Assembly (NCBI GenBank): GCA_040772385.1
Contig: JAXGYF010000001.1
Location: forward strand, 6,701,049 to 6,765,048
Reading direction: 5' to 3'
Length of the DNA: 64,000 nucleotides
From: Candidatus Vecturithrix sp.
Lineage (GTDB): Bacteria; Moduliflexota; Moduliflexia; Moduliflexales; Moduliflexaceae
The notes beneath the pieces are model-generated. The model did no database searches. It was not told the DNA's origin and saw only the letters and a list, made by a program, of their open reading frames with translations. Positions 643 through 64,000 of the stretch are shown one piece after another; position 1 is the first letter of the stretch; every line of letters starts with the position of its first letter. Made by a program: the position numbers and the translations under genes.

Positions 643-680
643 AAAAAAAACCGGGTTTTTTCAAAAAACCCGGTTTTTCT
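643..680. terminator. Palindromic hairpin AAAAAACCGGGTTTTTTCAAAAAACCCGGTTTTT between convergent rpsA and ATPase genes; this copy has A-run/T-run flanks consistent with a bidirectional terminator
   Basis: Perfect inverted repeat read from sequence, located between convergent stops at 574 and 692; member of a 13+ copy family. Confidence 0.6.
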
Positions 681-3656: not shown

Positions 3657-3692
3657 AAGAAACCGGGTTTTTCCCAAAAACCCGGTTTCTCT
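3657..3692. repeat. PRE-family palindrome GAAACCGGGTTTTTCCCAAAAACCCGGTTTC, about 30 nt 5' of the ATPase RBS
   Basis: Inverted repeat read directly; same core as the other copies. Confidence 0.6.
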
Positions 3693-4224: not shown

Positions 4225-4249
4225 AAGTGGTTTTCTTTTCGACAGGTTC

Positions 4250-4298
4250 GTAGTTCCGCCTTCAGGCGGAAGAACTCGCTAAAGCGAGAACTACAACC
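4250..4298. repeat. Compound hairpin repeat GTAGTTC-[CCGCcttcaGGCGG]-[CGCTaaaGCGAG]-AACTAC
   Basis: Read from sequence; one of 4 copies (also 10310, 11058, 62143). Confidence 0.5.
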
Positions 4299-10223: not shown

Positions 10224-10309
10224 GTTCTATCTGTTCAGCCACAAATCCGTTGCTTTTGAACATTCATCCAGAGTGGTGTTTCCATGTTATCCTCTGAAAA
10301 TACCCGTTC

Positions 10310-10350
10310 GTAGTTCCCGCTTTAGCGGGCTGCCTGAAGGCAGAACTACA
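10310..10350. repeat. GTAGTTC-[CCGCtttaGCGG]-[CTGCCtgaaGGCAG]-AACTAC compound hairpin, 3' of the TerD-like gene
   Basis: Read from sequence. Confidence 0.5.
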
Positions 10351-10368: not shown

Positions 10369-10935
10369 TTATCCGATCAGAGCGTTGGCTCCTGGAATTT
10401 TGTTGACGAATGTCCCTAAATCCATGATCTCATTCATGTTCACTAATTTTGCGCCCATAGGACTGGTGTTATCAATTTTGCATATAACAGCCACATGGCC
10501 TTTTTCACTGGCATTCAACGGCACTTCCACTTCTTCGCCGCGGTCGTTCATCACGATAACCGAGCCATCATAGGAGCCGAAAGCCGAGGCGATTTTTTTT
10601 GAGGCGTCGGTATAATTCAGGGCCACGATATAGAGTTCAGCTAGATCGTCTAATTTTGTAATTCGCAAAATTTCCTGATTATCCCCGCCTTTGGCGCCGA
10701 CGCCGGCATCGCCGCTTAGTTCAATAAAGGGGAAACTATTCAAGCTCCCCATTGAGCCGCCCGGATACCCGTCTGAAAATATTCCGCCGGGCTGACCGGT
10801 TTTGCTTTTGTAAAAGGCCATCAAATCCAGATCAACATCGGCCGTCCAGCGTAAGGTCACCATCAATTGTTTAACGGATACATACGCTTCTTCCCCTTTT
10901 TTATTCAATGTCACTTTGCGTTTAATTTCTGCCAT
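10369..10935 (-). CDS. TerD-family (Ca-binding stress protein-like) protein, paralog 1
   Basis: About 189 aa. Aligns by eye to the TerD pattern (VTL.K, LRWTADVDLDLMAF, SGDAGVGAKGGDNQEIL, FGSYDGS). Start MAEIKRKV chosen by homology to the paralogs at 18397 and 20436. Confidence 0.65.
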   Translation of the reverse strand: MAEIKRKVTLNKKGEEAYVSVKQLMVTLRWTADVDLDLMAFYKSKTGQPGGIFSDGYPGGSMGSLNSFPFIELSGDAGVGAKGGDNQEILRITKLDDLAELYIVALNYTDASKKIASAFGSYDGSVIVMNDRGEEVEVPLNASEKGHVAVICKIDNTSPMGAKLVNMNEIMDLGTFVNKIPGANALIG

Positions 10936-11057
10936 AATAGTTCTGAGTTCGCTCAACAATGTCTCTGAACAGACACAGATAACGGTTCAGCGAACATTTT
11001 CCTCCTTTGGAAATCATCAAACAACTCAGACGTGTCCGACAAAGTCCGACAAGTCCT

Positions 11058-11082
11058 GTACCGCCTGAAGGCGGAACTACAA
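11058..11082. repeat. Partial copy of the GTAGTTC-family hairpin (CCGCCTGAAGGCGGAACTACAA)
   Basis: Read from sequence. Confidence 0.4.
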
Positions 11083-11113
11083 ACTCATACAAATTTCTGT
11101 CCCAGCGTGATAA

Positions 11114-12625
11114 TTATGTATAATTCAGAATCGCAGATTTCTGCTGGCCTTCGGCCACCACCGTGACCGAAAGCATTTGTTCCTCATCTATTTTAAACGT
11201 CACTTCCACGTCCAACTTGCCGGCCGGCCTGGGAGGTAAGTCGGGAATGGAAATAGTACCAATATGAGAATGAGTATCTCTTCTAATCACCGGTCCGGCG
11301 CCTTGATAAATATCAATATCGAGAAAAGGTACATTATCCTGATATGTGGTAAACACTTGTTTAACTATACAGGGCGTACGATGATTGGCGGGGATCAGTT
11401 CTTTAAAATTACGCCCCTCTCGTTTGACGGTTTTAATACCAAGCGCATGACAGGTGCGGGTATAGATAGCGATCTCTTTATCAAAAAAGTTGCGATTATC
11501 CAAATACGCTGCGTACATGGCTGCGCCCTCGGCAATACTGGTTGAAGGGTTCGCGTTACTCCAGACTTTGGATTCACCGATGACATCGTCTAACAAGGCT
11601 TTCATACACGGAATCGCGCTTGAGCCTCCGACGCGAATGATGCGATCGACCTGAGAAGGCTTAATCCCGGATTTCGTCCAGAGATTGTGAATGATCTCTT
11701 TAATTTTTCTGACATAATGCTGAATCGATGCTTCAAACTCTTCCCGCGTCATTTCGCAATCAATATTTTTATCCGGGGGAATGATAAACGGCACAGATAC
11801 CCAACATTCGGTTGTGCTGCTGAGGGTTTTTTTAGCATCAATCGTAGCTTCCATCAATTTCTGACGCGATTGATTGAACTGAACCGGCGCCAGGCCATCT
11901 AACGAAAGTCGGTTCTTCTGCAAAATCAGTTCGGCAAAACAGGTATCAAAATCCATGCCGCCGAGCCGGTCGTCCCCACCCGTGCCCAACACTTCAAAAT
12001 TCAAACTTTTTCTGGTCTGCTCCAGACGAAAGAGAGTCAGATCAAAGGTTCCGCCGCCGAGATCGAACACCAAAATATTCTCGCTAAACTCTTTTTCAGG
12101 ATATTCTTCACTGAGCTGGTAGGCATAACATAAGGAAGCGGCAATCGGTTCCTGAATGACACCGATACAATTGATATTCGCCTTATCAGCCGCGATACGC
12201 GTGTTCTCGATCTGGTGCGCTTTAAAGTAAAAAGGAACTGTCACCACGCTTCCGCGACTGCTAAACACTCCTTTAGGAAATTTTGATTTGGCATCTTCAT
12301 AAATTTTTTCTAAAATAATCGCAGAAATTTCTACCGGACTGAATTCTTTACCGCCGAGCTTGACTTTTTGATTGACATCATCCATCAGGCGCTTGACGCC
12401 GACGATCATGTTTTCAGGCATGATCAAGCCCCTGCGATAGGCGATTTGCCCGACAATATATTCCTCTTTTTCAGGATTGTAATAGACGACCGATTGAGTG
12501 GTATCCTGCCCGGTTTTATTTTGAATGATGCGCGGCCCGCGGCCGTCAATCCAGCGGGCCAGAGCGCTGAACGTGGTTCCCAAATCAAAGCCTAGCACCG
12601 GATTCTTTTCGCTGTCAACAGCCAT
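11114..12625 (-). CDS. Hsp70-family ATPase, lid-less paralog A (503 aa)
   Basis: LGFDLGTTFS phosphate-1 motif and VFDLGGGTFD motif; NBD plus beta-sandwich SBD with no helical lid. RBS GGAGGAGAGG precedes the ATG. Confidence 0.85.
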   Translation of the reverse strand: MAVDSEKNPVLGFDLGTTFSALARWIDGRGPRIIQNKTGQDTTQSVVYYNPEKEEYIVGQIAYRRGLIMPENMIVGVKRLMDDVNQKVKLGGKEFSPVEISAIILEKIYEDAKSKFPKGVFSSRGSVVTVPFYFKAHQIENTRIAADKANINCIGVIQEPIAASLCYAYQLSEEYPEKEFSENILVFDLGGGTFDLTLFRLEQTRKSLNFEVLGTGGDDRLGGMDFDTCFAELILQKNRLSLDGLAPVQFNQSRQKLMEATIDAKKTLSSTTECWVSVPFIIPPDKNIDCEMTREEFEASIQHYVRKIKEIIHNLWTKSGIKPSQVDRIIRVGGSSAIPCMKALLDDVIGESKVWSNANPSTSIAEGAAMYAAYLDNRNFFDKEIAIYTRTCHALGIKTVKREGRNFKELIPANHRTPCIVKQVFTTYQDNVPFLDIDIYQGAGPVIRRDTHSHIGTISIPDLPPRPAGKLDVEVTFKIDEEQMLSVTVVAEGQQKSAILNYT

Positions 12626-12637
12626 GTCCTCTCCTCC

Positions 12638-12738
12638 TGGGAAACTACAGGGATTTCACATAATTCAGGGATAAAACATCCTTGCTTATGAGAAATCCTT
12701 GTAGTTTCATTGCGTCGGGTGAGCGCCCGTTCATGACA
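12638..12738 (-). promoter_or_regulatory. Conserved structured leader (family L) immediately 5' of the Hsp70-A RBS
   Basis: Nested inverted repeats GAAACTACAAGGATTTCTCATAAGCAAGGAT...ATCCCTGTAGTTTC plus the upstream TCATGAACGGGCGCTCA repeat that overlaps the grpE-like stop codon; 6 copies in the window. Confidence 0.55.
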
Positions 12739-13714
12739 ACTCCTGTGTTTCACTCTCATTCTTCACAACAACGACCTGAGCGGCTCGAAGTACCAGACGT
12801 TCACCGCGATACGCCATATAATCGTAGCCTTTTCTGGCGACCTCTTTAATCTGATCATTTTCCATATTGGGATCCGGCTCAACGGCTAATGGCTCATGGC
12901 GTTCAAAGTCAACTACGGTTCCCGGAGCAACATCCATCTCATGCACGTCAATTTGCTCAAAAACCCGTTCGAGTTCAGCACCAAGTTTCTGGTAAGTCTC
13001 ATACCAGACTGCCAGCGCCTCGGCATTTTCCGCATAGCGCTGCCGGAATTCTTCAATGCGCGGAGGCATCAGTTTCTGGCCGTCATAGATGCCATCAAGA
13101 ATGGGCAGCACTTGTTTTTCGAGGAAAGATAAAATCTGGTCTCTGCGATTTTTCACCAGATCGTTTGACAGGGAAACAATTTTGTAATTGTCTTTTCCGA
13201 TGGTCTTAAGCGTTTGCTGCATTTTTTGCAGCGCGAGGTCTTTTTCTGTCGTTTCCTCAAACAGCGTTCGCCATTGTTCTGCTTCTATCACACGTAACTC
13301 GCCAGGGCTCTCAAGATCCTCAGCCAGTTTTTTTAAACGCTCTCCTGGTGTGACCAGACGTTCCAGCATTCTACCGATAATTTCCAGCCCTTCTTGATGG
13401 TTTTTAATCTCTTTTTGCAACTCCTCAGGCCATGCCGCGACAAGATTTTGACTTTCAGCAATCATTGCTTTGGCTGCATTGGCTGCGCATTCGATTTCGG
13501 GCACTAATTTTTTCCCATAGGTTTCCCAATAACAGGCTTCTTCAAAATTCGCGTCATATAGCTGTCGATCTTCTTCGAGTTGCGCTTCCTCACTTTTTTT
13601 AGCGCTGGCAACTAATTCGTCAAGATCAAATTCAAACGGACGTTCCGGCGTCTCCTGCTTTTCTAAAATCGTCGGTTCTTCTTGAGCAGGAACCTGTGCT
13701 TCTGATGTTGTCAT
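12731..13714 (-). CDS. GrpE-like nucleotide exchange factor, elongated (327 aa)
   Basis: C-terminal FERHEPLAV...KGYDYMAYRGERLVLRAAQVVVV matches the GrpE beta-domain pattern (FDP.xHxAx ... KGY.L.GR.LRPA.V.V); a long acidic coiled-coil-like N-terminus; AGGAGG RBS. Confidence 0.6.
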   Translation of the reverse strand: MTTSEAQVPAQEEPTILEKQETPERPFEFDLDELVASAKKSEEAQLEEDRQLYDANFEEACYWETYGKKLVPEIECAANAAKAMIAESQNLVAAWPEELQKEIKNHQEGLEIIGRMLERLVTPGERLKKLAEDLESPGELRVIEAEQWRTLFEETTEKDLALQKMQQTLKTIGKDNYKIVSLSNDLVKNRRDQILSFLEKQVLPILDGIYDGQKLMPPRIEEFRQRYAENAEALAVWYETYQKLGAELERVFEQIDVHEMDVAPGTVVDFERHEPLAVEPDPNMENDQIKEVARKGYDYMAYRGERLVLRAAQVVVVKNESETQELS

Positions 13715-13741
13715 AGCACTTTCCTCCTGATAATAAGGCAG

Positions 13742-15322
13742 TTATGATTCTTTGATTTCCAATTCTTCCGAAGAGCCTGAACTACTCGCTCTGACTCTGA
13801 GTAAATTTTGCTGATCAATCTCAAATTTGACGGTAATCCGTTCCTGACCGCGAGGTTTCGGCGGGATGCCGCTCAAGAAAAATTCTCCGATACATTTGAC
13901 GCCTTCTGAGGAGACATATTCGACGTCATCAAGAGATTGATACACCCGAATCGCCAGTTCAGTCATATTATCGCGGGGGGTGCTGTAATCTTTTGTAGCA
14001 ACCACTGGTTGATCCGCCGGAATATCAATGCCTTTTCGGATAAGGCAGCTAAATCTGCCGCCGACCACTTCAATTCCCAGGTTGTGCGTCACTTTATCGT
14101 GTAATTCGATCTTAAACGCCGGGATATCATCAACTTCTTTCGGCACAAAATCAGCGTCTTGCGGCAGGTTCATGGTCGCTCCCAGAATTGCGGCCCCACG
14201 CGCAATCGCCGTATCCGGATCGATATCCGAATACGGTTCTCTGCCAAACATCTCCTGAAGCATCTCTTTGACCAGAGGCACTTTGGTCGAGCCGCCGACC
14301 AGAATGATGCGATCAACATCTCGAATCGTAAATTGAGCGGCATCCAGGGCCTTTTGCACAGCTTCTCTGGTGTCCATCACCAGATCGCGAATGACCTCAT
14401 TAAACTGTTCGCGCGTCACTTCCATCTCAACGTGATAAGGCGTGCCGCTTTCATCGTGAATAATATTGGGAATATGAATGCTGGCGCTCGAAGCTTCAGT
14501 AAGTTCGTGTTTGGCCTCCATCACGGCCTCTTTCAGTTTTTGCTGGGCGTTGCGGAGTTTATTTTCATTGATCCCCTGATCTTTTTTCAGATCGAGGATA
14601 TCAACGCCGGATTGTTCGCGTAACGTGCTGGCAACAATCGCCATCAGCCGTTCATCAAAGTCATCGCCGCCTAACTCCGAGATACCTTCTTTGGCCAGGA
14701 CGCTGAAGGATTTTTGATCATCTTGAGTCGAGTTGACCTGGAGAATCGAAACGTCAAAAGTACCGCCGCCGAGATCATAGACCAGAATCGTCTGATCGCG
14801 TTCTTTTTCCAGGGCATACGCATACGCGGCCGCCACCGGTTCTTCCAGCAGACGGAGTACCTCCAGATTCGCAAGTTCTGCGGCTTTCCTGGTGGCCTTC
14901 TTTTTGGCGTCGTCAAAATTGGCAGGAACACAGATGACTGCGTATTTGGGAAGACCGCCGAGTTCAAAGGCTTCATACTGCTGCACGCCTGCCGCGACTT
15001 TTGAGAGAATTTCGGCGGCAATATCGGCGGGGGTATAGACTCGCTCCGGCTGCCCGTCAAAAACTTTGGTCCAGGCTTCTCCCATTTTGCGTTTGATGGA
15101 GACCACTGTATTTTCAGGATCGATGATACTGCGCGATTTTGCCTGCTGTCCGACAAGGACGTCGCCATTCCTCAACACCGACACCACAGAAGGCAGCGTC
15201 TTGGCCCCATAAATTGGAATAATTTCAGACTGTCCGGCTTTATACACCGCAACAGCAGTATTGGTAGTGCCTAAATCGATTCCAAGAACATAGCCGCTAT
15301 AGGTTTCTTTTGTCTGACTCAT
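13742..15322 (-). CDS. Hsp70-family ATPase, lid-less paralog B (526 aa)
   Basis: LGIDLGTTNTAVAV and VYDLGGGTFDVS motifs. Confidence 0.85.
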   Translation of the reverse strand: MSQTKETYSGYVLGIDLGTTNTAVAVYKAGQSEIIPIYGAKTLPSVVSVLRNGDVLVGQQAKSRSIIDPENTVVSIKRKMGEAWTKVFDGQPERVYTPADIAAEILSKVAAGVQQYEAFELGGLPKYAVICVPANFDDAKKKATRKAAELANLEVLRLLEEPVAAAYAYALEKERDQTILVYDLGGGTFDVSILQVNSTQDDQKSFSVLAKEGISELGGDDFDERLMAIVASTLREQSGVDILDLKKDQGINENKLRNAQQKLKEAVMEAKHELTEASSASIHIPNIIHDESGTPYHVEMEVTREQFNEVIRDLVMDTREAVQKALDAAQFTIRDVDRIILVGGSTKVPLVKEMLQEMFGREPYSDIDPDTAIARGAAILGATMNLPQDADFVPKEVDDIPAFKIELHDKVTHNLGIEVVGGRFSCLIRKGIDIPADQPVVATKDYSTPRDNMTELAIRVYQSLDDVEYVSSEGVKCIGEFFLSGIPPKPRGQERITVKFEIDQQNLLRVRASSSGSSEELEIKES

Positions 15323-15335
15323 GATTGTTCTCCTC

Positions 15336-15412
15336 TGAAACTACAAGGATGACTCATAAGCAAGGATTTTTATCCCTGATTACCTGATTATGTGAAAATC
15401 CTTGTAGTACAT
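15336..15412 (-). promoter_or_regulatory. Family-L structured leader 5' of Hsp70-B
   Basis: GAAACTACAAGGATGACTCATAAGCAAGGATTTTTATCCCTG...GAAAATCCTTGTAG, nearly identical to the copies at 22343 and 12638. Confidence 0.55.
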
Positions 15413-15434
15413 GATTTCAGAAATAACGAGACAG

Positions 15435-15472
15435 GAGAAACCAGGTTTTCAGGAAAAAACCTGGTTTCTTCG
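15435..15472. repeat. PRE-family palindrome (variant GAAACCAGGTTTTCAGGAAAAAACCTGGTTTC) between Hsp70-C and the Hsp70-B leader
   Basis: Read from sequence. Confidence 0.6.
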
Positions 15473-15487
15473 TCGCGCCTCGACTCT

Positions 15488-17026
15488 TTATGTTGTCATC
15501 CTCACCTGCACGGTTTTAGATTTGGCGTCCCCATAGTTCAACATGTCATCTACTGTCGGCAGATCCAGGTCTCCATTGTGCGTTGCAGCATAGTTGATAA
15601 TCGGCAGAAGTTTTTCGCTGATCGGAAATTGGACGGCAGTAAAATGAATGATGCCGTCAGCGTCTAATTCGAAAATTGCCCCGACCGGGACAAGATTTTC
15701 CTGCGGCGGTGAAATGGGCAATTCGAGTTCTCCCAAATAGTGATTTTGCAGCGGATTAGGTTGTTCTCCTCGAAAGACGCGCATTTTTACAACTGGCTGT
15801 CCTGGATACCCGGTAGATCCAAGAAATCCGCCGCGACACGGATAACTGGTTTGGCGCGGAATAATTGCCCGAAACATCAACTGCTGCTGTTCGTTCAAGG
15901 CATCTATGCCGAGTGAGTGCCCGGTCACATCGGAAATTTCAATCGGCAGAGCTTCTTCCGCGGGTAAAAAGAGATTCGCCGCCACAATAGATGCGCCGTG
16001 TGATACGACCTCATCAACCCGATCGGCAATATACGGATCTTTGATCTGCTGGGCAATCACCTCGCGCACGGCCTTATTTTTGGTTGATCCGCCGACTAAA
16101 ATCACCCGGTCAATGTCGCGCGGCGTCAGGTTTGCGTCGCGCAAGACGGCTTTCATCGCCTGAATCGTACGTTGCAGCAGCGGATCGATCAGGCGGTTAT
16201 ATTCAGACAGCGAAATTTCGAGGCTCAAGGGATAGCCTAAACAGTCAGGAAGATTGATAAAGGCGCTTTCGGATTCTGACAATTCAATTTTGGCAGTTTC
16301 AGCGGCTTCTTTCAAACGTTGTTGGGCGATACGACCTTCCCGGGTGGTATTATTCAGCACATCAACCCCGGTTTTTTTTCTGAACGCTGCTGCCGCCCAA
16401 TTAATGATGGCCTGGTCAAAATCGTCGCCGCCGAGACGGCTGTCGCCGCCAACGGCCTTGACGTTAAAGTTATTCCCGCGAATTTCCAGAATCGAAACGT
16501 CAAACGTACCGCCGCCCAGGTCATAGACCATAATCGTCTGATCGCGCTCCTTATCCAACCCATAGGCAATTGCGGCGGCCGTTGGTTCGGGGAGCAGACG
16601 CAGAACGTTCAATCCGGCTTCTTCCCCGGCTTTTTTCGTATCTTCGCGCTGAGCCTCGGTAAAATAGGCCGGCACCGTAATGACCGCATCCCAGATTTCT
16701 TCTTTCAGCACGCTTTGCGCGCTTTCAACCAATTGTTTTAAGATCATACTGGCAATGTTGACCGGCGTCAGCGTTTTAAAGCGGATACGATAGGATTTGC
16801 TGCGATCGCCCATAAAGCGTTTTGATGAAAAAATCGTATTCTCCGGATCAATCAACATTCTGGATTTGGCGGCCTGACCGATAAGCACATCCCCCTCTTC
16901 ACGAAATGAGATGACCGAGGGCATGGTTGTGCGTCCTTTGATGAGAAGCGTCTCAGCAACCCCGCGCCGATAAATAGACACCACAGAATTGGTAGTGCCA
17001 AGATCAATCCCCACTGCGTAAGCCAT
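15488..17026 (-). CDS. Hsp70-family ATPase, lid-less paralog C (about 512 aa)
   Basis: Start at MAYAVGIDLGTTNS behind AAAGGAGAA; VYDLGGGTFDVS motif. Confidence 0.85.
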   Translation of the reverse strand: MAYAVGIDLGTTNSVVSIYRRGVAETLLIKGRTTMPSVISFREEGDVLIGQAAKSRMLIDPENTIFSSKRFMGDRSKSYRIRFKTLTPVNIASMILKQLVESAQSVLKEEIWDAVITVPAYFTEAQREDTKKAGEEAGLNVLRLLPEPTAAAIAYGLDKERDQTIMVYDLGGGTFDVSILEIRGNNFNVKAVGGDSRLGGDDFDQAIINWAAAAFRKKTGVDVLNNTTREGRIAQQRLKEAAETAKIELSESESAFINLPDCLGYPLSLEISLSEYNRLIDPLLQRTIQAMKAVLRDANLTPRDIDRVILVGGSTKNKAVREVIAQQIKDPYIADRVDEVVSHGASIVAANLFLPAEEALPIEISDVTGHSLGIDALNEQQQLMFRAIIPRQTSYPCRGGFLGSTGYPGQPVVKMRVFRGEQPNPLQNHYLGELELPISPPQENLVPVGAIFELDADGIIHFTAVQFPISEKLLPIINYAATHNGDLDLPTVDDMLNYGDAKSKTVQVRMTT

Positions 17027-17035
17027 AATATTCTC

Positions 17036-17118
17036 CTTTAAAACTACAGGAATTGATCTATAAGCAAGAATCATTCCGAAGAGCATTCTTGCTTATAGAT
17101 CAATTCCTGTAGTTTCAT
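17036..17118 (-). promoter_or_regulatory. Family-L leader 5' of Hsp70-C (long near-perfect palindrome CTACAGGAATTGATCTATAAGCAAGAAT...ATTCTTGCTTATAGATCAATTCCTGTAG)
   Basis: Read from sequence; ends with GTAGTTTTAAAGGAG at the RBS. Confidence 0.55.
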
Positions 17119-17127
17119 ACCCTCTTG

Positions 17128-17826
17128 TCACTCTACAACTGTAAATTCACGTGCGCGTTGTAATTTGATCCTCAATTGTGAGGCAAAAGCAAAAATATAT
17201 CTGAGCGCAATCGCAAAACCTAACCCTTGCGCATGTTCAATGGAAATCATACTGTTCGCCACGCCAATCACCTCGCCGTTCTCGTTCAGAATGGGGCCGC
17301 CGCTATTCCCCGGATTGAGCGCCACATCTGTCTGAATAAAACTTGCGCCCTGAATCAGGCGATTACGGTTGCTGATAATGCCTTGCGACACGGTAAAATC
17401 TAAACCGAGAGGATGGCCGAGCGCGTACACTCGCTGACCCGTCTGAATCGAAATCGGATCTGCAAAGGTCAGGCAGGGCGCCTGAAGTTGAGGGATTTGA
17501 AGCATCGCCAGATCATGTAACGGATCTTGCGCCAGCACTGGCGATTGCCAGATTTCACCACTGGAAGAGACAAGCTCAATCGTTTCTGAATGAATCACAT
17601 GGCGACATGTGAGAAGATGACCATCCGAACTCACAACAAACCCGGTTCCAATCCCATGAGCGCTGCGTAAAAGGAAAACAGCGTCTTCTGCACTTCGGAG
17701 AACGTCTTCGATTGATCTTCCAGATGTCATCATCACATTGCCCCTCTCGGAAATAGCCTCCGGAATTCCAGCATATTTGTGAGCAACTCCAGAGTCAAGG
17801 CGATAGAGCAGGTATATTTTATGCAT
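17128..17826 (-). CDS. trypsin-like (S1 family) serine protease, no PDZ domain
   Basis: TCRHVI (His), DLAML (Asp) and GNSGGP (Ser) catalytic signatures. The start ATG overlaps the TerD-2 stop (ATGCATAA). Confidence 0.7.
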   Translation of the reverse strand: MHKIYLLYRLDSGVAHKYAGIPEAISERGNVMMTSGRSIEDVLRSAEDAVFLLRSAHGIGTGFVVSSDGHLLTCRHVIHSETIELVSSSGEIWQSPVLAQDPLHDLAMLQIPQLQAPCLTFADPISIQTGQRVYALGHPLGLDFTVSQGIISNRNRLIQGASFIQTDVALNPGNSGGPILNENGEVIGVANSMISIEHAQGLGFAIALRYIFAFASQLRIKLQRAREFTVVE

Positions 17827-18397
17827 TCACAATTAAATGCGCACCGGGAATCGTCTCAGCAAATTTAGCAAGATCCATAATATCATTCTTATTAATCAAC
17901 TTAGCCCCCATGGGGCTGGTATTATCAATTTTACAAATCACAGCGACATGCCCTTTATCCCGAGAATTCAAGAGTACTTCGACCGCATCGCCCTTATCAT
18001 TCGTCACGGTGACAGAGCCGTCATAATTGCTAAACGTTGAGGATTTATTATCAACCGCGTCGTCATAATTAATGGTGACAATATACAATTCAGCCATGTC
18101 ATCCAATTTGGTGATACGAATAATCTCTTCATTTTCGCTTTGGGCGTCTTTATTATCATCAAATCCTTCATCGCCGCTGAGTTCAATAAAGGGAAAACTG
18201 TTTAAACTCCCTAAATCACCGCCTGGATAATTGTCTGAAAACACACCGCCAGTTCGCCCATCTTTGGTTTTATAGAAAGTCATCAGATCAAGATCCACCG
18301 CCGCAGTCCACTTCAACGACACCATGAGTTGTTTTACTGAAACATACGCTTCTTCATCTTTGGTGGTGAGTGTCACCTTACGTTTCAAGGTTGCCAT
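17819..18397 (-). CDS. TerD-family protein, paralog 2
   Basis: MATLKRKVTL...VDLDLMTF...SGDEGFDDNKDAQSENEEII; GGAGG RBS before the ATG at 18397. Confidence 0.65.
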   Translation of the reverse strand: MATLKRKVTLTTKDEEAYVSVKQLMVSLKWTAAVDLDLMTFYKTKDGRTGGVFSDNYPGGDLGSLNSFPFIELSGDEGFDDNKDAQSENEEIIRITKLDDMAELYIVTINYDDAVDNKSSTFSNYDGSVTVTNDKGDAVEVLLNSRDKGHVAVICKIDNTSPMGAKLINKNDIMDLAKFAETIPGAHLIVNA

Positions 18398-18413
18398 ATT
18401 TTTCCTCCAAACA

Positions 18414-18462
18414 GGAGTGCGAAAGCTCTGCTTTCGCAACGAAAGCAGAGCTTTCGCACTCC
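18414..18462. repeat. Family-S perfect hairpin GGAGTGCGAAAGCTCTGCTTTCG-caa-CGAAAGCAGAGCTTTCGCACTCC
   Basis: 23-bp perfect arms read from sequence, between the vWA and TerD-2 genes. Confidence 0.6.
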
Positions 18463-18470
18463 TATATTCT

Positions 18471-19244
18471 TTAATATAACTTTTTGTGCCTGGCTTCTCG
18501 TAACCAGGACGGAAACTCTGTCAGCATGCGCTTATACAGTTCATCGTCTGAAATACTGCCAATATCGTTTAAGGCAAAAAAATTAGCATTGTCAATAAAG
18601 CGGCCCGACATCGTGTCTAATTTTTCAAGAAAGCTGAATTTTCCTTTACCAATGCCGACAAACTGCCAGAAAATCGGAGATTTGGAGGCCTGTACAATAG
18701 CCTTCTCAGCTTCCGGCGGGTCATGATTATCCCCATCCGTGACAAATAGCACATACGCCGGGTCACCCGGTTCGGTGGTATATTTTGTGACAATCCGGTG
18801 AAGAACGCCGGCATAATTTGTGCTGCCTTCAAGCCGGTAGTGGCTGGTAATTTCTCGTTCGACAAACTCGAAAAAATTTTGTTCCGATAACTCGCCAACT
18901 TCATAGTCATCCTTGCCAAACAAAAAAATATCAACCGCGCCGTTATCGTCGAATTTCACTCCCAGGGCCAATAAGCGTTCGCAGACTTCCTGGACAATGC
19001 CTTGTTCGAACATTTTACGCATTGAAACCGAAATATCCAGGGCCAAAGCCACCCGCGCCCGTTGCCCTTCTAATCCGGCGTTTTTTACGGCAAGTGTCAC
19101 TTTCTTTTTTAAGTGCACCAGGTGTTCTTCAGCTTTTTTTCGTTTGAGCTGCACCGTTTGACTCATCTTTTGTTTCTTGCACCCATCGAACATACCGTTA
19201 TGATCCAAACGCCCATGTTTTCCGGGCAGCAAGACTCCTTTCAT
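18471..19244 (-). CDS. von Willebrand factor A domain protein, TerF/TerY-like
   Basis: MIDAS motif LALDISVSM, FVTDGDNHD, WQFVGIG; Lys-rich N-terminal segment. The start is uncertain (19244, 19166 or 19304). Confidence 0.6.
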   Translation of the reverse strand: MKGVLLPGKHGRLDHNGMFDGCKKQKMSQTVQLKRKKAEEHLVHLKKKVTLAVKNAGLEGQRARVALALDISVSMRKMFEQGIVQEVCERLLALGVKFDDNGAVDIFLFGKDDYEVGELSEQNFFEFVEREITSHYRLEGSTNYAGVLHRIVTKYTTEPGDPAYVLFVTDGDNHDPPEAEKAIVQASKSPIFWQFVGIGKGKFSFLEKLDTMSGRFIDNANFFALNDIGSISDDELYKRMLTEFPSWLREARHKKLY

Positions 19245-19248
19245 CGGC

Positions 19249-20436
19249 TTAATCTTTTTTGCCGGCGACCCATTGCAGTCCCCATTTATAGGCTTGATCG
19301 ACATCCTGATGACCGCGGAAATATTGAACGATCTTAGTCACCTTAAAAACATCATGCACATTTTCCAACAACGCAATGGCGCACATAGGCATCCCATCGC
19401 GGGGATCGTCGAGGTGTACGAGAATATCGGGCGAGCCGGCTTGTTTGATCGTCACCACGCCATCAGCCTGCGACCAGTTTGCCACACCTTCATAGATGTA
19501 CGAATAGACCAGAATTCGCTTGAATTCCTGCATGTAATCACCGTTAATACGCAAATTTTCTCCTTCAGCCTGAGCGCCGGTGCGGTCATCACCGCAGTGA
19601 AAAATATAGGGCGGTTGGTTATACGCGCCAAAGGTTTTCCCCAGAGGTTGTACCGCAGATTTGATGCCGTTTCTCAATTCAAAAAGACAGCCCAGATCAA
19701 GATCAATCGCCTGCCCGCCGCCGCCGAACATTTTAGAGAGTAAGCCGCCAGATGGTTTCGGCTGAGGACGCTGATTCCAATTCAGATTGACTAAGATTTC
19801 TCCGACTTTCCCGCCGCTTTTCGGTTTGAGTGTGACCGATTCGCCTTTTTTCTTCAGCACAATTTTCGAGGCTAAGTTCAGGTGATTGGCTCCCGGAATG
19901 TTCGCTTGAAATTCCGCCATGCTCATAATCCGGTTTTCATTAACCAATTTTGCGCCCATAAATCCGGAATTATCAATTTTGGCAATCACCGCCACAACGC
20001 CAGACTGAGAAGAATCCAGAGGCACGGACACATTTTCCCCTTTATCATCAACGACCGTGACTTGCGCATCGTACTTGCTGAAACGCGATTCTTGCCCCTG
20101 ACTGGCATCAGTAAAATTAATTGTGCAAATATAGACCTCGGCCATATCATCTAATTGCGTAATACGGATCACCTCTTCATTTTGACCGCCGGTAGCGCCA
20201 ACGCCGGCATCTGCGCTGAGTTGGATAAAAGGAAAGGTGTTCAAACTGCCCATATCGCCGCCCGCATAATTGTCGGAAAAAATGCCGCCCATACGTCCAT
20301 CTTTGGTTTTATAAAAGGCCATCAGGTCGAGGTCAACAGAAGCAGTCCATTGGAGGGAGACCATCAACTGTTTGACAGAGACATACGCTTCCTCGCCTTT
20401 AGTCTTCAGCGTGACCTTTGGTTTTAACGTTGCCAT
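19249..20436 (-). CDS. tandem TerD-family protein (diverged N-terminal TerD-like domain + canonical C-terminal TerD domain)
   Basis: N-domain MATLKPKVTL...VDLDLMAF is paralogous to the 10369 and 17819 genes. C-domain carries AIDLDLGCLF and the Ca-site-like GDDRTGAQAEGENLRI. AGGAGG RBS. Confidence 0.65.
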   Translation of the reverse strand: MATLKPKVTLKTKGEEAYVSVKQLMVSLQWTASVDLDLMAFYKTKDGRMGGIFSDNYAGGDMGSLNTFPFIQLSADAGVGATGGQNEEVIRITQLDDMAEVYICTINFTDASQGQESRFSKYDAQVTVVDDKGENVSVPLDSSQSGVVAVIAKIDNSGFMGAKLVNENRIMSMAEFQANIPGANHLNLASKIVLKKKGESVTLKPKSGGKVGEILVNLNWNQRPQPKPSGGLLSKMFGGGGQAIDLDLGCLFELRNGIKSAVQPLGKTFGAYNQPPYIFHCGDDRTGAQAEGENLRINGDYMQEFKRILVYSYIYEGVANWSQADGVVTIKQAGSPDILVHLDDPRDGMPMCAIALLENVHDVFKVTKIVQYFRGHQDVDQAYKWGLQWVAGKKD

Positions 20437-20658
20437 GCTCTTGCCTCCTGTTATAATCGCTGTGAAGTTTTGAAGTATGGATAAAAAATCTACAAACTTT
20501 TTACTCAACAGAACGGGTTTGTCAAGTACTTTTTTCACAGGAGAATAAATCGGAATGTGCCGCGTTTTTTCTTGACAGTTCATTCCAGTGAAACGTATTT
20601 GAGTAACTACTGTTCTGGGACACAAGTTTTTACGAGCGCTCTACAACGGAGTTTTATA

Positions 20659-20786
20659 GGAGTGGCAAAGCTCGGCTTTGCCATCTGGCGAAGCGTTCAG
20701 CGAGCCGGGTACGCCGGTGCGGCGATGGCTCGGTTCGCTGAATGTTTCGCCTGCTACCACCCGCCAAAGCCGAGCTTTGGCACCCC
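20659..20786. repeat. Family-S compound palindrome (GGAGTGGCAAAGCTCGGCTTTG ... CAAAGCCGAGCTTTGGCACCC with an inner GGCGAAGCGTTCAGCGAGCC/GGTTCGCTGAATGTTTCGCC repeat) in the divergent promoter region
   Basis: Read from sequence. Confidence 0.5.
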
Positions 20787-20860
20787 TGGGTTCTCGTACA
20801 AATAAAAAGGGATTTGTGAATATTGCCTGAGAATAATGGAGAGGAGGAACACGACGATTC

Positions 20861-21931: not shown

Positions 21932-21977
21932 GACTGCCAAAGCTCTACTTTCGCCGCCAAAGCAGAGCTTTGGCACT
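21932..21977. repeat. Family-S hairpin GACTGCCAAAGCTCTAC...GCAGAGCTTTGGCACTC
   Basis: Read from sequence. Confidence 0.5.
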
Positions 21978-22093
21978 CTGGAACATCAAGAACTTCACAG
22001 CCCTGTCCCGTAAGCGGAGGGAAATGGATCGACATTCTCCACGCAGAAATGCACGTCATGGAGAAGTAAAGTACTCTTCTTTGTACTGGTTCA

Positions 22094-22330: not shown

Positions 22331-22342
22331 AATGTACCTTCC

Positions 22343-22447
22343 CCCTCCTGGGAAACTACAAGGATTCCTCATAAGCAAGGATTTTTTATCCCTGGTTATG
22401 TGAAATCCCTGTAGTTTCATCCAGGTGAGCCTACGCTCATGTGAACT
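22343..22447 (-). promoter_or_regulatory. Family-L structured leader 5' of the small ORF
   Basis: GGGAAACTACAAGGATTCCTCATAAGCAAGGATTTTTTATCCCTGG...GTAGTTTCATCCAGGTGAGCCTACGCTCATG. Confidence 0.55.
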
Positions 22448-22462
22448 CTTTTGAAACGACTG

Positions 22463-23332: not shown

Positions 23333-23337
23333 AGCTT

Positions 23338-23412
23338 TCTCCCATGTAAATGAAATATCTCTTCGTACGTGTCAGAAACCGGGTTTTTTGAAAAAACCCG
23401 GTTTCTATGCTT
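23338..23412. repeat. Extended PRE cassette: palindrome + CTGACACG + ..TATTTCATTTACATGGGAG (RBS) directly 5' of the crotonase gene
   Basis: Near-identical to the cassettes at 60022 and 59533. Confidence 0.6.
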
Positions 23413-23422
23413 GACTCCTGGA

Positions 23423-28117: not shown

Positions 28118-28150
28118 CGTTTTTCTCCTTGTTTTTTATAGAGCTCAATA

Positions 28151-28183
28151 AAAGCCGGGTTTTTTGAAAAAACCCGGCTTTTC
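28151..28183. repeat. PRE-family palindrome AAAGCCGGGTTTTTTGAAAAAACCCGGCTTT
   Basis: Read from sequence, between the MFP stop and the SBP start. Confidence 0.6.
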
Positions 28184-31476: not shown

Positions 31477-31511
31477 AGAACGAATGAAAATTTCACTTTC
31501 AAAGGAGTTGA

Positions 31512-31590
31512 CATGAGCAGGCTGCTCACCTGGTATGATGAAACTGGATGCAGAAAGCCTTGCTTATGGGTAACCCTTATAGTTTCACAG
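31512..31590 (+). promoter_or_regulatory. Family-L leader copy (CATGAGCAGGCTGCTCACCTG...ATGAAACTGG...CCTTGCTTATGGGTAACCCTTATAGTTTCA) directly 5' of the encapsulin RBS
   Basis: Shares the ordered modules of the Hsp70 leaders; read from sequence. Confidence 0.5.
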
Positions 31591-31601
31591 GAGGGAAAAT
31601 T

Positions 31602-32399: not shown

Positions 32400-32436
32400 A
32401 CTTCAGAAGAATTAATGTATCTCCCTCTCCCGCCTT

Positions 32437-49738: not shown

Positions 49739-49744
49739 GCGAGT

Positions 49745-54559: not shown

Positions 54560-54584
54560 AATTCGTATTCTCCTTTGAAACTAT

Positions 54585-54682
54585 AGGAACGAAGATAAGC
54601 AAGAACCATATCTCAGGCACATTCTTGCTTATCTCCCTTCTTGTAGTTTCATTGTGTCAGGTGAGCGTTTCGCTCATGACAT
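54585..54682 (-). promoter_or_regulatory. Family-L structured leader 5' of the Dabb gene
   Basis: GAAACTATAGG...AAGCAAGAACC...GGTTCTTGCTT...CTTGTAGTTTCATTGTGTCAGGTGAGCGTTTCGCTCATGAC. Confidence 0.55.
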
Positions 54683-54689
54683 CTCCTAT

Positions 54690-54756
54690 AAACCTACAAG
54701 AATTGATATAGAAGCAAGCGATTCTTGCTTCTATATCAATTCTTGTAGGTTCATCT
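54690..54756. repeat. Second adjacent long palindrome CTACAAGAATTGATATAGAAGCAAG-cgat-CTTGCTTCTATATCAATTCTTGTAG (family-L core only)
   Basis: About 30-bp near-perfect arms read from sequence. Confidence 0.5.
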
Positions 54757-63468: not shown

Positions 63469-64000
63469 ACAAGCCTCCTTTGATTAGGTGGTCCCATAGT
63501 TCGAAGTATCAGCTCGACCAGAGACCCCTGATTAACTGTAAACTGCTGAACCACGCAAAATTGTTTAACTTCTTCAATTTCTCTCATTTGAAGCATAAAT
63601 ATCTTTATTAGAAATAAAAATATCTTGTATTGAAGAAATTTAAACTTTCAAGTGAAAGTAGAATATATGTAAAATATGTCAAGAAAAATTTTTAATTTTT
63701 TATGTTGAAAGAATTTTGTCTGATTTACAGGTATTTCTGCACAGCTGCAAATGCGCCTGGGGATGGATATTATGTCATTGTGGAGGCTGATTCACGGTGC
63801 AATGAATCACTCTCACAGAGGGATACAGGACTCCTGGCGTTTTGTTTTCCTTCTCGCTGAGCTTATCCACGTCTCCAAGAGTGCGTAACATGGGGTATTT
63901 ATAAGTATTAACCTTCCTTATTCGTACCCCGGACAAGATCGTCCGGGGTACGGGTCTGTTCAAAGGCACATTAACTCAACTGAATAATGCTGTAATCGCC

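What the first reader, a model, noticed from the sequence alone, without database searches (positions are those of the whole stretch)
12638..12738. Conserved ~90-nt structured leader (family L) immediately 5' of six stress-type genes: putative regulon-defining cis element
Copies are at 12638-12738 (Hsp70-A), 15336-15412 (Hsp70-B), 17036-17118 (Hsp70-C), 22343-22447 (small ORF), 54585-54682 plus 54690-54756 (Dabb) and 31512-31590 (encapsulin). Each has the same module order in the gene direction: a short inverted repeat TCATGAGCG-n-CGCTCACCTGA (absent in two copies), then ATGAAACTACAAGG, then a long palindrome built on CTCATAAGCAAG / CTTGCTTATGAG-type arms, then CCTTGTAGTTTC abutting the Shine-Dalgarno (for example GTAGTTTCCCAGGAGG, GTAGTTTCAAAGGAG). 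Arm sequences co-vary between copies while pairing is kept, which indicates selection on structure (an RNA leader, for example a thermometer or attenuator) and/or a palindromic operator for one regulator. It matches neither CIRCE, HAIR nor CtsR boxes. The gene set (Hsp70s, Dabb, encapsulin) looks like a stress regulon.
Basis: seen in the sequence. Interest (0 to 1): 0.75.

Follow-up and report, generated by a model that had tools for sequence, protein, structure and literature searches.

The report
Dispersed hairpin repeat in gene leaders
The repeated ~70-100-nt hairpin in front of the Hsp70, Dabb and encapsulin genes is real, but it is a copy-and-spread intergenic repeat found all over related genomes, in front of unrelated genes, and not a switch that defines a stress regulon.

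Summary
The window has six full copies and one decayed copy of a long hairpin (arms GAAACTACAAGG..ATAAGCAAG / CTTGCTTAT..CCTTGTAGTTTC). Each ends 2-3 nt before an AGGAG on the gene strand, and pairing is kept by compensatory changes. The stress-regulon reading does not hold.

- **Dispersal:** The family is scattered across the genome of the close relative Ca. Vecturithrix granuli (UASB270), with at least 28 full hairpins in 24 sampled 8-kb chunks. There it precedes unrelated metabolic and transport genes.
- **Wider range:** Copies also occur in Ca. Moduliflexus. The 28-nt arm occurs as single, inverted-pair and tandem copies in giant sulfur bacteria (Beggiatoaceae).
- **Turnover:** At orthologous sites in sister genomes the element is absent, swapped for another subfamily, or replaced by a different repeat (a GTAG-tagged REP dimer). 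More distant homologous operons have 20-70-nt spacers.
- **Strand:** The element is an almost perfect DNA palindrome that scores equally on both strands.
- **Architecture:** It is modular, with a leader plus SD, a small hairpin starting at ATG, the long hairpin, then an SD. It is often tandem.

Best reading: a REP/BIME-, TIR- or MITE-like mosaic repeat that carries its own ribosome-binding site and sits in co-transcribed leaders and operon spacers. How it moves was not found. It is a new family of a known kind, of modest interest.

The parts
12626..12745 (-). Copy A composite. SD1 (AGGAG, 12740-12744); ATGA overlapping the stop of the GrpE-like gene (12731-12734); small hairpin M1 (12711-12734); long hairpin M2 (12641-12708); SD2 (12628-12640). 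Hsp70-A starts at 12625.
   Evidence: (I10)
15329..15411 (-). Copy B. Long hairpin 15337-15411 with an eroded left arm, SD 15330-15334, Hsp70-B start at 15322. No M1. It lies just downstream of a terminator-like hairpin at 15434-15471.
17030..17118 (-). Copy C. Perfect 31-bp-arm hairpin 17040-17116 with loop GCTCTTCGGAATG, SD 17033-17037, Hsp70-C start at 17026. No M1.
   Evidence: (I2)
22341..22452 (-). Copy D composite. SD1-like AAGAG (~22448-22452), M1 22419-22442, long hairpin 22352-22418, SD2 22341-22351. The 78-aa ORF starts at 22330.
   Evidence: (I3)
54567..54687 (-). Copy E1 composite. SD1 54683-54687 (also the 3' SD of E2), M1 54651-54679, long hairpin 54577-54650 (subfamily with a conserved internal mismatch), SD2 54570-54574. 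Dabb starts at 54559.
   Evidence: (I4)
54690..54752 (-). Copy E2. A 63-nt near-perfect palindrome with a minimal loop, in tandem upstream of E1. The orthologous copy in a Vecturithrix MAG (L112:2799-2875) keeps a 13-nt loop.
   Evidence: (I1)
31487..31595 (+). Copy F, decayed, in the EncFtn-encapsulin intercistronic spacer. Leader M0 31487-31502, SD1 31503-31507, M1 31513-31533, degenerate left arm 31540-31558, intact right arm 31559-31586, SD2 31589-31594. Encapsulin starts at 31602.
63700..63725 (.). Site without an element. Ca. V. granuli has a full element here (L052:30-104), whereas the window keeps only TGATTTACAGGTATT. This is a presence/absence polymorphism.

Best explanation
Family L is a modular, dispersed, hairpin-forming intergenic repeat of Moduliflexota genomes (Ca. 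Vecturithrix and Ca. Moduliflexus). Its 28-nt arm is shared with Beggiatoaceae. It is not a gene-set-specific regulatory leader.

**Shown.** The full unit reads, in the gene direction:
- a leader M0 ending in AGGAG;
- 5 nt;
- ATGA opening a small hairpin (M1);
- ATG opening a 63-87-nt hairpin (M2), made of two inverted 28-31-nt arms with constant ends (A)AACTAC / GTAGTT(T) and inner boxes ATAAGCAAG / CTTGCTTAT;
- then A/C-N-AGGAG.

Units occur alone, truncated to the SD-proximal arm, or in tandem. They are gained, lost and exchanged between close relatives, and the hairpin is kept by compensatory change.

**Inferred.**
- Copies spread or are exchanged as DNA through a structure-dependent route. 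The most likely agent is a tyrosine (HUH) transposase of the RAYT/TIRYT kind acting on single-stranded hairpins, or recombination between copies.
- Because the unit ends in its own Shine-Dalgarno, insertion just upstream of a start codon leaves translation intact. Copies therefore survive mainly in leaders and operon spacers.
- There they are co-transcribed and form a stable stem-loop directly 5' of a free RBS. Any effect on mRNA processing, stability or translation would be a generic by-product that may be exploited locally.
For: **Dispersal**
Hits lie on nine scaffolds of Ca. V. granuli.
- There are at least 28 full hairpins plus solo arms in 24 chunks of 8 kb.
- Assemblies carrying the identical encapsulin gene break exactly at the element.
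- Seven copies with the same M1-M2-SD layout (in six loci) occur in metagenomes.

**Unrelated downstream genes:**

**Turnover at orthologous sites**
- L106 (Hsp70-C 96% identical) has GTAG-REP dimers at sites A, B and C and no element at D.
- The model finds no L copy in L106-L111 or L114.
- Operons at 72-74% identity have 20-70-nt spacers.
- At the Dabb site, E2 is orthologous in L112 but E1 is replaced by another subfamily. More distant orthologues lack both.
- UASB270 has a copy where the window has none.
- M. flocculans has a diverged copy between GRE and ADH, where the window and L112 have a 10-nt spacer.

**Family behaviour**
- Subfamilies, chimeric arms and flipped loops are present.
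- The element is a DNA-level palindrome. 792 of 952 arm positions are Watson-Crick paired, and model scores are equal on both strands.
- The arm occurs single, in inverted pairs and in tandem in Thiomargarita, Marithrix and Parabeggiatoa, scoring 60-78 bits.

**SD belongs to the unit**
- The spacing to the hairpin foot is a constant 2-3 nt, and the SD is on exactly one side in 26 of 36 copies, never on both.
- Partial SD-like remnants (ACAGGC, AAAGGG, AAAAGAG) follow some copies that are not next to a gene; I read these as decayed SDs.
- SD-proximal solo arms are retained in front of genes (copy F in the window, L005, L093, L105 and the solo arm in L112).

**Published analogues:** singles, dimers and clusters of TIR or REP units tied to tyrosine transposases are described in PMC3733652.
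Against: - No transposase was linked to the arms. The only Y1 gene seen is an IS200-type pseudogene that an L-like arm truncates. That shows co-occurrence, not cause.
- No target-site duplication is visible at any junction.
- GTAG lies inside the stem, not as an unpaired tag, so L is not a canonical REP.
- About 70% of copies abut a gene start or another unit. This is the opposite of the 3'-of-gene bias reported for REPs (PMC3733652) and would also fit a selected leader function.
- G.U exceeds A.C on the gene strand by about 2:1 (50:30:20). This leans towards RNA-level selection, although most of the excess comes from one subfamily.
- No transcript data were available.
- Whole-genome copy number is unknown because the scan was truncated.
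Confidence: 0.75

Rival explanations
1. Generic, host-selected leader element. The hairpin-plus-SD module is kept because it serves expression of whatever gene follows. Possible roles are a 5' stem-loop that protects the downstream cistron after processing, an RNase III site that uncouples operon cistrons, or an insulator that keeps the RBS unstructured. The upstream SD-ATG (M1) would act like the first cistron of a bicistronic design.
For: - Strong 5'-end and orientation bias.
- The SD is left unpaired in most folds.
- Sites A, B and C carry some structured repeat in both sister genomes, L in one and Y in the other.
- E2 is kept at the orthologous site.
- SD-N5-ATG is conserved at the 5' side of M1.
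- The G.U excess on the gene strand is about 2:1.
- Copies sit in operon spacers such as EncFtn-encapsulin and ADH-Dabb, so they are very probably transcribed.
Against: - Site D and the GRE-ADH site function without any element in relatives.
- Distant homologous operons have none.
- Upstream ORFs from the M1 ATG are 2-92 codons long with stops at unrelated places, so no coupling design is conserved.
- Solo arms and decayed copies such as F still precede intact genes.
- Ten of 36 copies have no SD on either side and some lie far from a start, for example L052, about 250 nt upstream.
- Both strands score alike.
Confidence: 0.25
2. One reading: a regulon-defining cis element. It would be either an RNA thermometer or attenuator, or a palindromic operator for one regulator of a stress regulon (Hsp70s, Dabb, encapsulin).
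For: Within the window all seven copies precede genes that carry stress-sounding annotations. The hairpin co-varies. In copy D the stem can extend over CCAGG of the SD.
Against: - The gene set is heterogeneous in the relative.
- Elements are replaced or absent at orthologous sites.
- The loop varies from 2 to more than 30 nt and the arm centres vary, which is incompatible with a fixed dimeric operator.
- The SD is outside the helix in 5 of 7 folds.
- There is no Rfam match. The only weak hits are a plant microRNA precursor model and GcvB, both far below threshold.
- No CIRCE, HAIR or CtsR box is present.
- The three Hsp70s belong to a vWA/TerD/trypsin cluster whose homologues have up to five Hsp70 paralogues. 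This is not a dnaK heat-shock operon.
Confidence: 0.05
3. A classical MITE. This would be a deletion derivative of a DDE-type insertion sequence whose 28-31-nt terminal inverted repeats are the arms, mobilised in trans by that transposase.
For: - Long terminal inverted repeats with constant termini, two direct sub-repeats per arm (CAAGGAT twice), subfamilies, presence/absence polymorphism, and distribution across phyla.
- Thiomargarita is reported to carry a long-hairpin, Correia-like MITE present on more than 100 contigs (PMC4853749).
Against: - No target-site duplication is seen at any of about 40 junctions.
- The variable centre of the arms stays complementary within a copy, which transposase binding to two separate ends does not require.
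- Solo and head-to-tail tandem arms occur.
- No full-length element with these ends was seen in about 0.5 Mb of related sequence.
- The Thiomargarita paper's supplementary consensus sequences do not contain the arm.
Confidence: 0.15

Closest known systems
REP / BIME / REPIN elements and the TIR repeats of tyrosine transposases (RAYT, TIRYT)
   Same: Short extragenic units occur as singles, inverted dimers that fold into a longer hairpin, and clusters. There are several families per genome and mosaic combinations with other motifs. The hairpin is kept by compensatory change and there is no target duplication. The GTAG/CTAC tetranucleotide is conserved at the unit end. A bona fide GTAG-tagged REP dimer family (Y) coexists in the same genomes and alternates with L at the same sites (PMC3733652).
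   Different: GTAG is paired inside the stem, not an unpaired tag next to a short palindrome. Each arm is not itself a palindrome. Copies lie mainly 5' of genes and carry an SD, whereas REPs are mainly 3' of genes. No RAYT or TIRYT gene flanked by the arms has been found.
Correia (CREE) and ERIC-type elements (bacterial MITE-like repeats that are co-transcribed with neighbouring genes)
   Same: Palindromic repeats of 70-150 bp in intergenic and intercistronic positions. They are co-transcribed, form long stem-loops that could be RNase III substrates, supply expression signals to the adjacent gene, and are polymorphic between strains (PMC2649163; otherwise own knowledge).
   Different: Correia elements duplicate TA and create promoters. 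L shows no duplication and supplies an SD. No promoter-like site was predicted in it. There is no sequence similarity.
MIRU (mycobacterial interspersed repetitive units)
   Same: Oriented with the flanking genes, located in operon spacers, often tandem. Units begin and end with translation signals. In copy A the unit's ATG overlaps the stop of the upstream gene as ATGA. The MIRU properties are from my own knowledge (Supply et al. 1997), not checked here.
   Different: MIRUs are direct repeats without a long hairpin, and their small ORFs overlap both neighbours consistently. In L the upstream ORFs are not conserved in length or frame.
RNA thermometers (ROSE, fourU) and heat-shock operators (CIRCE/HrcA, HAIR/HspR, CtsR box)
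   Same: A structured or palindromic sequence just upstream of chaperone genes.
   Different: The SD and AUG are not sequestered. There is no match to the Rfam families or to the operator consensus sequences. The element is not restricted to chaperone genes.

Membership tests
REP / REPIN (RAYT-mobilised) | Many extragenic copies occurring as singles, inverted dimers and clusters | tested here: met
   Solo arms, inverted pairs and tandem arms (L061), plus tandem composites.
REP / REPIN (RAYT-mobilised) | Unpaired GTAG (or CGTC) tag next to a short imperfect palindrome (PMC3733652) | tested here: not met
   GTAG is conserved, but it pairs with CTAC in the long stem, and a single arm is not a palindrome. 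The co-resident family Y does meet this feature.
REP / REPIN (RAYT-mobilised) | A RAYT (Y1/HUH) gene flanked by the repeat units in the same genome | not testable with these tools
   Only 8-kb chunks of the relative's genome were available.
REP / REPIN (RAYT-mobilised) | Predominant location downstream of coding regions | tested here: not met
   26 of 36 copies carry an SD on one side, and 23 of these lead into a gene start or the next unit.
MITE (DDE-transposon derivative) | Terminal inverted repeats enclosing a short non-coding core, in many copies | tested here: met
   Arms of 28-31 nt with 2-30-nt cores, seen in dozens of sampled copies; total per genome unknown.
MITE (DDE-transposon derivative) | Target-site duplication flanking each copy | tested here: not met
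   No recurrent direct repeat at the junctions. The upstream AGGAG lies inside the composite, not at its edge.
MITE (DDE-transposon derivative) | Presence/absence polymorphism at orthologous sites | tested here: met
   Site D, the L052 site, the GRE-ADH site and the Dabb site.
MITE (DDE-transposon derivative) | Autonomous partner element with the same ends | not tested
   This needs whole genomes. None was seen in the loci held.
RNA thermometer (ROSE / fourU) | SD and/or start codon base-paired in the regulatory hairpin | tested here: not met
   The SD lies 2-3 nt 3' of the helix and is unpaired in 5 of 7 minimum-energy folds. It is partly paired only in D. There is no Rfam hit.
Operator of a heat-shock repressor (CIRCE, HAIR, CtsR box) | Match to the consensus with fixed half-site spacing, restricted to the regulon's promoters | tested here: not met
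   No matches near the elements. Spacing between half-sites varies from 2 to more than 30 nt. Downstream genes are unrelated.
MIRU-like intercistronic repeat | Small ORF in the unit whose start and stop overlap those of the flanking genes | tested here: inconclusive
   The ATGA overlap with the upstream stop occurs in copy A only. ORFs from the M1 ATG are 2-92 codons long and end at varied positions.

The most novel reading that the evidence does not exclude
L, and the co-resident Y units, may be mobile 'ribosome-binding-site cassettes'. Each would be a structured mini-cistron bounded by ATG at its 5' end and by SD plus spacer at its 3' end. It would be inserted or exchanged precisely at start codons by a hairpin-recognising HUH enzyme, so that it never breaks translation. 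The host would then use them to set cistron-by-cistron mRNA stability and translation in operons. The system would be shared horizontally among filamentous bacteria of different phyla (Moduliflexota, Beggiatoaceae).
Probability: 0.15. Interest if true: 0.65.

Novelty: new member of a known kind. Interest (0 to 1): 0.3.

Why it matters
The result removes a false lead. Nothing here supports a new heat-shock or stress regulatory motif.

It also documents an undescribed repeat family, with no Rfam match and no sequence match in the papers searched, in the candidate phylum responsible for anaerobic sludge bulking. Three features are unusual for REP- or MITE-like repeats:
- a built-in Shine-Dalgarno;
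- a strong bias to gene 5' ends;
- interchange with other repeat families at the same spacers.

Practical consequences follow. These repeats break metagenome assemblies exactly at gene starts. They create spurious N-terminal extensions in ORF calls, for example 31548 for encapsulin and 22531 for the 78-aa gene. They can be mistaken for regulons by motif finders.

The shared arm in Beggiatoaceae adds a non-coding marker to the reported gene exchange among filamentous bacteria (PMC6390638).

Tried and rejected
- **Sigma-54 and sigma-70 promoter inside the element.** By-eye spacing checks were inconsistent between copies. The scan gave no promoter-like site on the gene strand at any element, and there was only one sigma-54-like site in the window, elsewhere.
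- **Conserved leader peptide.** The frames and lengths of ORFs from the M1 and M2 ATGs are not conserved.
- **Target-site duplication of AGGAG.** Rejected, because the alignment shows the upstream AGGAG is internal, preceded by a conserved leader M0.
- **CRISPR array.** Tandem arms in L061 have no spacers.
- **Rfam.** Nothing at gathering thresholds. At E of 1 or less there were only meaningless hits to a plant miRNA hairpin model and to GcvB.
- **Viral contigs.** Essentially chance matches, with one possible solo arm.
- **Thiomargarita MITE paper.** The supplementary consensus sequences do not contain the arm. MacGregor 2013 is not held.
- **Link to IS200.** The last protein search returned only short or truncated IS200-type TnpA proteins on short contigs, with no usable context.
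- **G.U versus A.C strand test.** Only about 2:1 and dominated by one subfamily, so it does not decide between RNA and single-stranded DNA.
Full report
**1. The observation**

Reading the seven stated places shows the described modules in the stated order on the strand of the downstream gene.

- Six copies are full hairpins: A 12641-12708, B 15337-15411, C 17040-17116, D 22352-22418, E1 54577-54650 and E2 54690-54752, all on the - strand.
- The seventh, F (31540-31586, + strand), keeps only the right arm.
- Arm complementarity is 84-100% over 23-42 nt.
- Predicted folds are -31 to -55 kcal/mol with z-scores from -3.4 to -13.3. F is not significant at z -1.6.
- The 3'-arm pattern occurs 8 times against 0 expected.
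- A covariance model with filters off finds exactly these six hairpins and nothing else below E = 0.05 in 64 kb.
- In all seven copies the hairpin foot is followed after 2-3 nt by AGGAG, then by the start codon or, for E2, by the next unit.
- The small upstream hairpin (CATGAGCG-n-CGCTCACCYG) is present in A, D, E1 and F and absent in B, C and E2.

The downstream genes are three Hsp70-family genes, a 78-aa ORF, a Dabb protein and an encapsulin.

**2. Structure is under constraint, but not visibly as RNA**

I aligned 27 copies from the window and from a related genome.

- 93.7% of cells form a standard pair, and 13 of 28 pairs show changes on both sides.
- 67 cells are double-changed against 21.4 +/- 3.8 in shuffles (0 of 500 shuffles reach this).
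- Sliding the 3' partner by 1-3 columns drops pairing to 37-46%.

However, the element is close to a perfect DNA palindrome. 792 of 952 arm positions are Watson-Crick paired, and the model scores both strands about equally, for example 82.1 against 75.7 bits for C.

The only strand-specific signal is the ratio of G.U to A.C. It is 50:30, or 43:20 counted, in favour of the gene strand. Most of that excess comes from one subfamily descended from a common master, so it does not separate an RNA hairpin from a single-stranded DNA hairpin.

**3. The family is dispersed and its neighbours are unrelated genes**

About a quarter of the returned stretches came from 'Bacterium UASB270', which is Ca. Vecturithrix granuli (8.4 Mb, 84% coding). 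The hits lie on nine of its scaffolds.

The window comes from a relative of that organism:
- window 55591-63722 aligns to UASB270 scaffold 2 at about 86% nucleotide identity;
- the best Dabb homologue is annotated as Ca. Vecturithrix sp..

In the 24 UASB270 chunks of 8 kb there are at least 28 full hairpins plus solo arms. The genes they precede include an M20-peptidase-like protein, an FGGY sugar kinase, alanine dehydrogenase, a TctB-like transporter subunit, a B3/4-domain-like protein, lipoproteins and unknowns. No window orthologues appear among them. These gene names were assigned by eye from the translations, not by a family search. That is not a stress regulon.

A second, very specific two-arm pattern found 17 metagenome loci. 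The seven copies (in six loci) that carry the small hairpin again end in AGGAG. Five of them are followed by a likely gene start.

**4. Orthologous sites show gain, loss and replacement**

*Hsp70 cluster.*
- A metagenome scaffold (L106) encodes an Hsp70-C that is 96% identical and has the same order: trypsin-like, Hsp70-C, Hsp70-B, GrpE-like, Hsp70-A.
- The model finds no L copy in it.
- Its three spacers instead carry a different repeat, CGTAGT-[hairpin]-[hairpin]-ACTACG. This is a GTAG-tagged REP dimer, here called family Y. It is followed by a leader ending in GGGAG.
- In front of the 78-aa gene, L106 has no repeat at all. Homology to the window resumes at GGGGGA(A)GGTACATTATG.
- Operons whose Hsp70 is 72-74% identical have spacers of 20-70 nt.

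*Dabb site.*
- A Vecturithrix MAG (L112, Dabb 93% identical) keeps E2 at the orthologous position, with a 13-nt loop that the window copy has lost.
- In place of E1 it carries a hairpin of another subfamily.
- It also has a solo arm in front of the next gene, where the window has only a remnant.
- Orthologues at 76% and 68% identity have no L element there.

*Other sites.*
- UASB270 has a full element at L052:30-104, where the window (about 63700-63725) has only TGATTTACAGGTATT.
- Ca. Moduliflexus flocculans has a diverged copy between the glycyl-radical enzyme and ADH genes, where the window and L112 have a 10-nt spacer.

A gene-specific regulatory leader would be conserved with its gene. These elements are not.

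**5. Architecture**

Aligning the 5' flanks of 22 copies shows that conservation extends about 60 nt upstream of the long hairpin. The parts, in order, are:
- a leader M0 (..AATTTCGCGCTACATTTTCA or GAATGAAAATTTCATTGACAT);
- AGGAG;
- 5 nt;
- (C/T)ATGA opening the small hairpin M1;
- ATG opening the long hairpin M2;
- A/C-N-AGGAG.

Units are frequently tandem, with the SD of one unit followed after 5 nt by the ATG of the next. The leader also occurs without hairpins, directly between a near-identical terminator and a start codon (window 23336-23419 and 60024-60105).

The hairpins fall into subfamilies:
- 67-nt D type;
- 77-nt C type, with loop GCTCTTCGGAATG present in both orientations;
- 75-nt E1 type, with a conserved internal mismatch;
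- an 87-nt type.

Some copies are chimeras of two subfamilies.

Among 36 full hairpins, an SD-like motif lies within 4 nt of the foot on exactly one side in 26, on both sides in none, and on neither in 10. Of the 26, 16 lead into an ORF of at least 60 codons within 30 nt and 7 into another unit. Some copies away from genes show partial SD-like remnants (ACAGGC, AAAGGG, AAAAGAG); I read these as decayed SDs. Solo arms that persist in front of genes are the SD-proximal ones (copy F in the window, L005, L093, L105, L112).

I therefore take the SD to be part of the unit. It is used by the gene when the unit lies at the right distance.

**6. Context in the window**

The copies lie in what look like operon spacers:
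- EncFtn (31111-31476) to encapsulin;
- ADH to Dabb, inside a cluster of glycyl-radical enzyme, ADH, Dabb and activase;
- GrpE-like to Hsp70-A, and trypsin-like to Hsp70-C, inside a vWA-TerF / TerD / trypsin / Hsp70 cluster.

Co-transcription is thus likely, but this is inferred and not shown. Copies B and D follow terminator-like hairpins. No sigma-70-like promoter is predicted in any element. Where their transcripts start is unknown.

**7. Relatives outside the phylum**

The same 28-nt arm, with the same constant blocks, occurs in Ca. Thiomargarita nelsonii, Ca. Marithrix, Ca. Parabeggiatoa, a Thiotrichaceae MAG and one deltaproteobacterial MAG.
- It appears as inverted pairs of 63-122 nt, as solo arms and as head-to-tail triplets.
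- The model scores the inverted-pair copies in Thiomargarita, Marithrix and Parabeggiatoa at 45-78 bits, most of them as high as the window copies.
- These copies have no adjacent SD.

Gene exchange among filamentous Beggiatoaceae, cyanobacteria, Desulfonema and KSB3 has been reported (PMC6390638). Thiomargarita is reported to carry abundant long-hairpin, Correia-like MITEs (PMC4853749). I could not match our arm to that paper's supplementary sequences.

**8. How it most likely works**

*Shown:* it is a multi-copy, modular, structurally constrained repeat that turns over between close relatives, carries an SD at its 3' end and sits mostly at gene 5' ends.

*Inferred, about mobility:*
- No target duplication is seen.
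- Singles, inverted dimers and clusters all occur.
- The arms' variable centre stays complementary.
- Loops are found flipped.
- The GTAGTT/AACTAC end is shared with the co-resident GTAG-REP family Y.

Together these point to a mechanism that reads a folded single strand. This is the case for REPs with RAYTs and for the TIR repeats of TIRYT tyrosine transposases (PMC3733652). Recombination between copies may add to this. I rate that route at about 0.35 and a DDE-type MITE at about 0.15. The rest is undecided.

The only Y1 gene seen is an IS200-type pseudogene in UASB270 that is cut off exactly by GAGAAATCCTTGTAGTTAT. This is suggestive of co-residence only.

*Inferred, about position:* a unit that ends in its own SD can land between an upstream gene and a start codon without silencing the downstream gene. 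Purifying selection then leaves copies in leaders.

*Inferred, about the RNA:* a 25-31-bp stem directly 5' of a free SD would be expected to act as an RNase III target and/or a 5' stabiliser. This follows established knowledge of REP, ERIC and Correia elements. It was not tested here.

**9. Comparison with known families**

- **REP/REPIN.** L meets the organisation criteria but fails the 'unpaired GTAG tag plus short palindrome' criterion and the '3' of genes' tendency. The RAYT criterion could not be tested.
- **MITE.** L meets the TIR, copy-number and polymorphism criteria but fails target duplication.
- **MIRU.** L resembles MIRUs in orientation, tandem arrangement and ATG/SD-bounded units. 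In copy A the ATGA overlaps the GrpE-like stop. The upstream ORFs are not conserved.
- **Thermometers and heat-shock operators.** L fails every tested criterion for RNA thermometers and for CIRCE, HAIR and CtsR operators.

**10. Verdict**

The sequence observation is correct and well above chance. The structural inference is correct. The regulon, thermometer and operator interpretations are not supported.

What is there is a previously undescribed family of a known kind of element: a dispersed palindromic intergenic repeat. It has an unusual SD-bearing, 5'-of-gene habit and a cross-phylum distribution. Interest is modest (0.3).

The most novel reading still open is that these are mobile RBS cassettes that the host uses to tune operons. 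I rate that at about 0.15.

Noticed in passing
window 4249-4295 and 10309-10350; L106 3691-3739, 5079-5127, 5307-5355; L103 292-340: A second repeat family ('Y'): CGTAGTT-[5-6-bp hairpin]-[5-6-bp hairpin]-AACTACR. This is a GTAG-tagged REP dimer, usually followed by a leader ending in GGAG/GGGAG and a start codon. In the sister scaffold L106 it occupies the very spacers that hold family L in the window.
   Followed up: partly
window 18413-18463, 20658-20787, 21932-21978, 34368-34420 (also L052, L056, L095): A third palindromic repeat family, AGGAGTGCGAAAGCTCTGCTTTCG and its inverse, 88-94% identical between the window and Ca. V. granuli. At 18413-18463 it sits where L106 has a family-Y element.
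   Followed up: no
window 646-678, 3658-3690, 23374-23406, 28150-28182, 42162-42194, 54176-54208, 58421-58453, 60059-60091: Near-identical bidirectional terminator hairpins, AGAAACCGGGTTTTT(n)AAAAACCCGGTTTCT. Two of them (23336-23419 and 60024-60105) are followed by the same roughly 35-nt leader ending in GGGAG plus 6-7 nt plus ATG. That leader is itself a dispersed repeat shared with UASB270 (82-93% identity).
   Followed up: partly
window 10369-20625 (- strand): The three Hsp70 genes belong to a cluster with a GrpE-like protein, a trypsin-like peptidase, vWA-TerF and unannotated paralogues, and TerD genes appear in the orthologue L106. Homologous clusters have up to five Hsp70 paralogues in a row. 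They occur in cyanobacteria, Desulfobacterales and KSB1. This looks like an accessory or conflict-type system, not the housekeeping dnaK-grpE operon.
   Followed up: partly
window 31111-32399: EncFtn (encapsulated ferritin-like cargo) and encapsulin shell form a two-gene operon, and copy F is its 125-nt spacer. The mechanical ORF call 31548-32399 extends encapsulin into the repeat. The likely start is 31602.
   Followed up: partly
L012 2850-3270 (Ca. V. granuli scaffold 6): An IS200-type tnpA pseudogene with a frameshift at the start, and an inverted repeat seen by eye just upstream of it, possibly its left-end hairpin. It is truncated after the HUH motif exactly where an L-arm-like GAGAAATCCTTGTAGTTAT begins.
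   Followed up: partly
L115 1779-1846 (Ca. Moduliflexus flocculans): A diverged L-like hairpin (AAAAACTACATCGAAT...ATTCGTTGTAGTTTTT) directly abutting the ADH start codon without an SD. The family therefore spans two classes of Moduliflexota.
   Followed up: partly
window 49742-49856: Nested inverted repeats (27- and 29-nt arms, 76-89% complementary) in the spacer upstream of the gene at 47894-49738. They are unrelated to family L and unexplained.
   Followed up: no
window 32421-32466, 58310-58349; L115 around 2900-3000 and 3330-3480: GC-rich palindromes of the CCCCTCCC / GGGAGGGG type. Similar ones flank the Dabb gene in Ca. M. flocculans where Vecturithrix has family L.
   Followed up: no
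L001-L004, and many 0.5-1-kb contigs: Public assemblies of this lineage break at these repeats, with contig ends 23-85 nt upstream of encapsulin. Close Dabb homologues mostly sit on contigs under 1 kb. The repeats are therefore a practical obstacle to assembly and binning.
   Followed up: no
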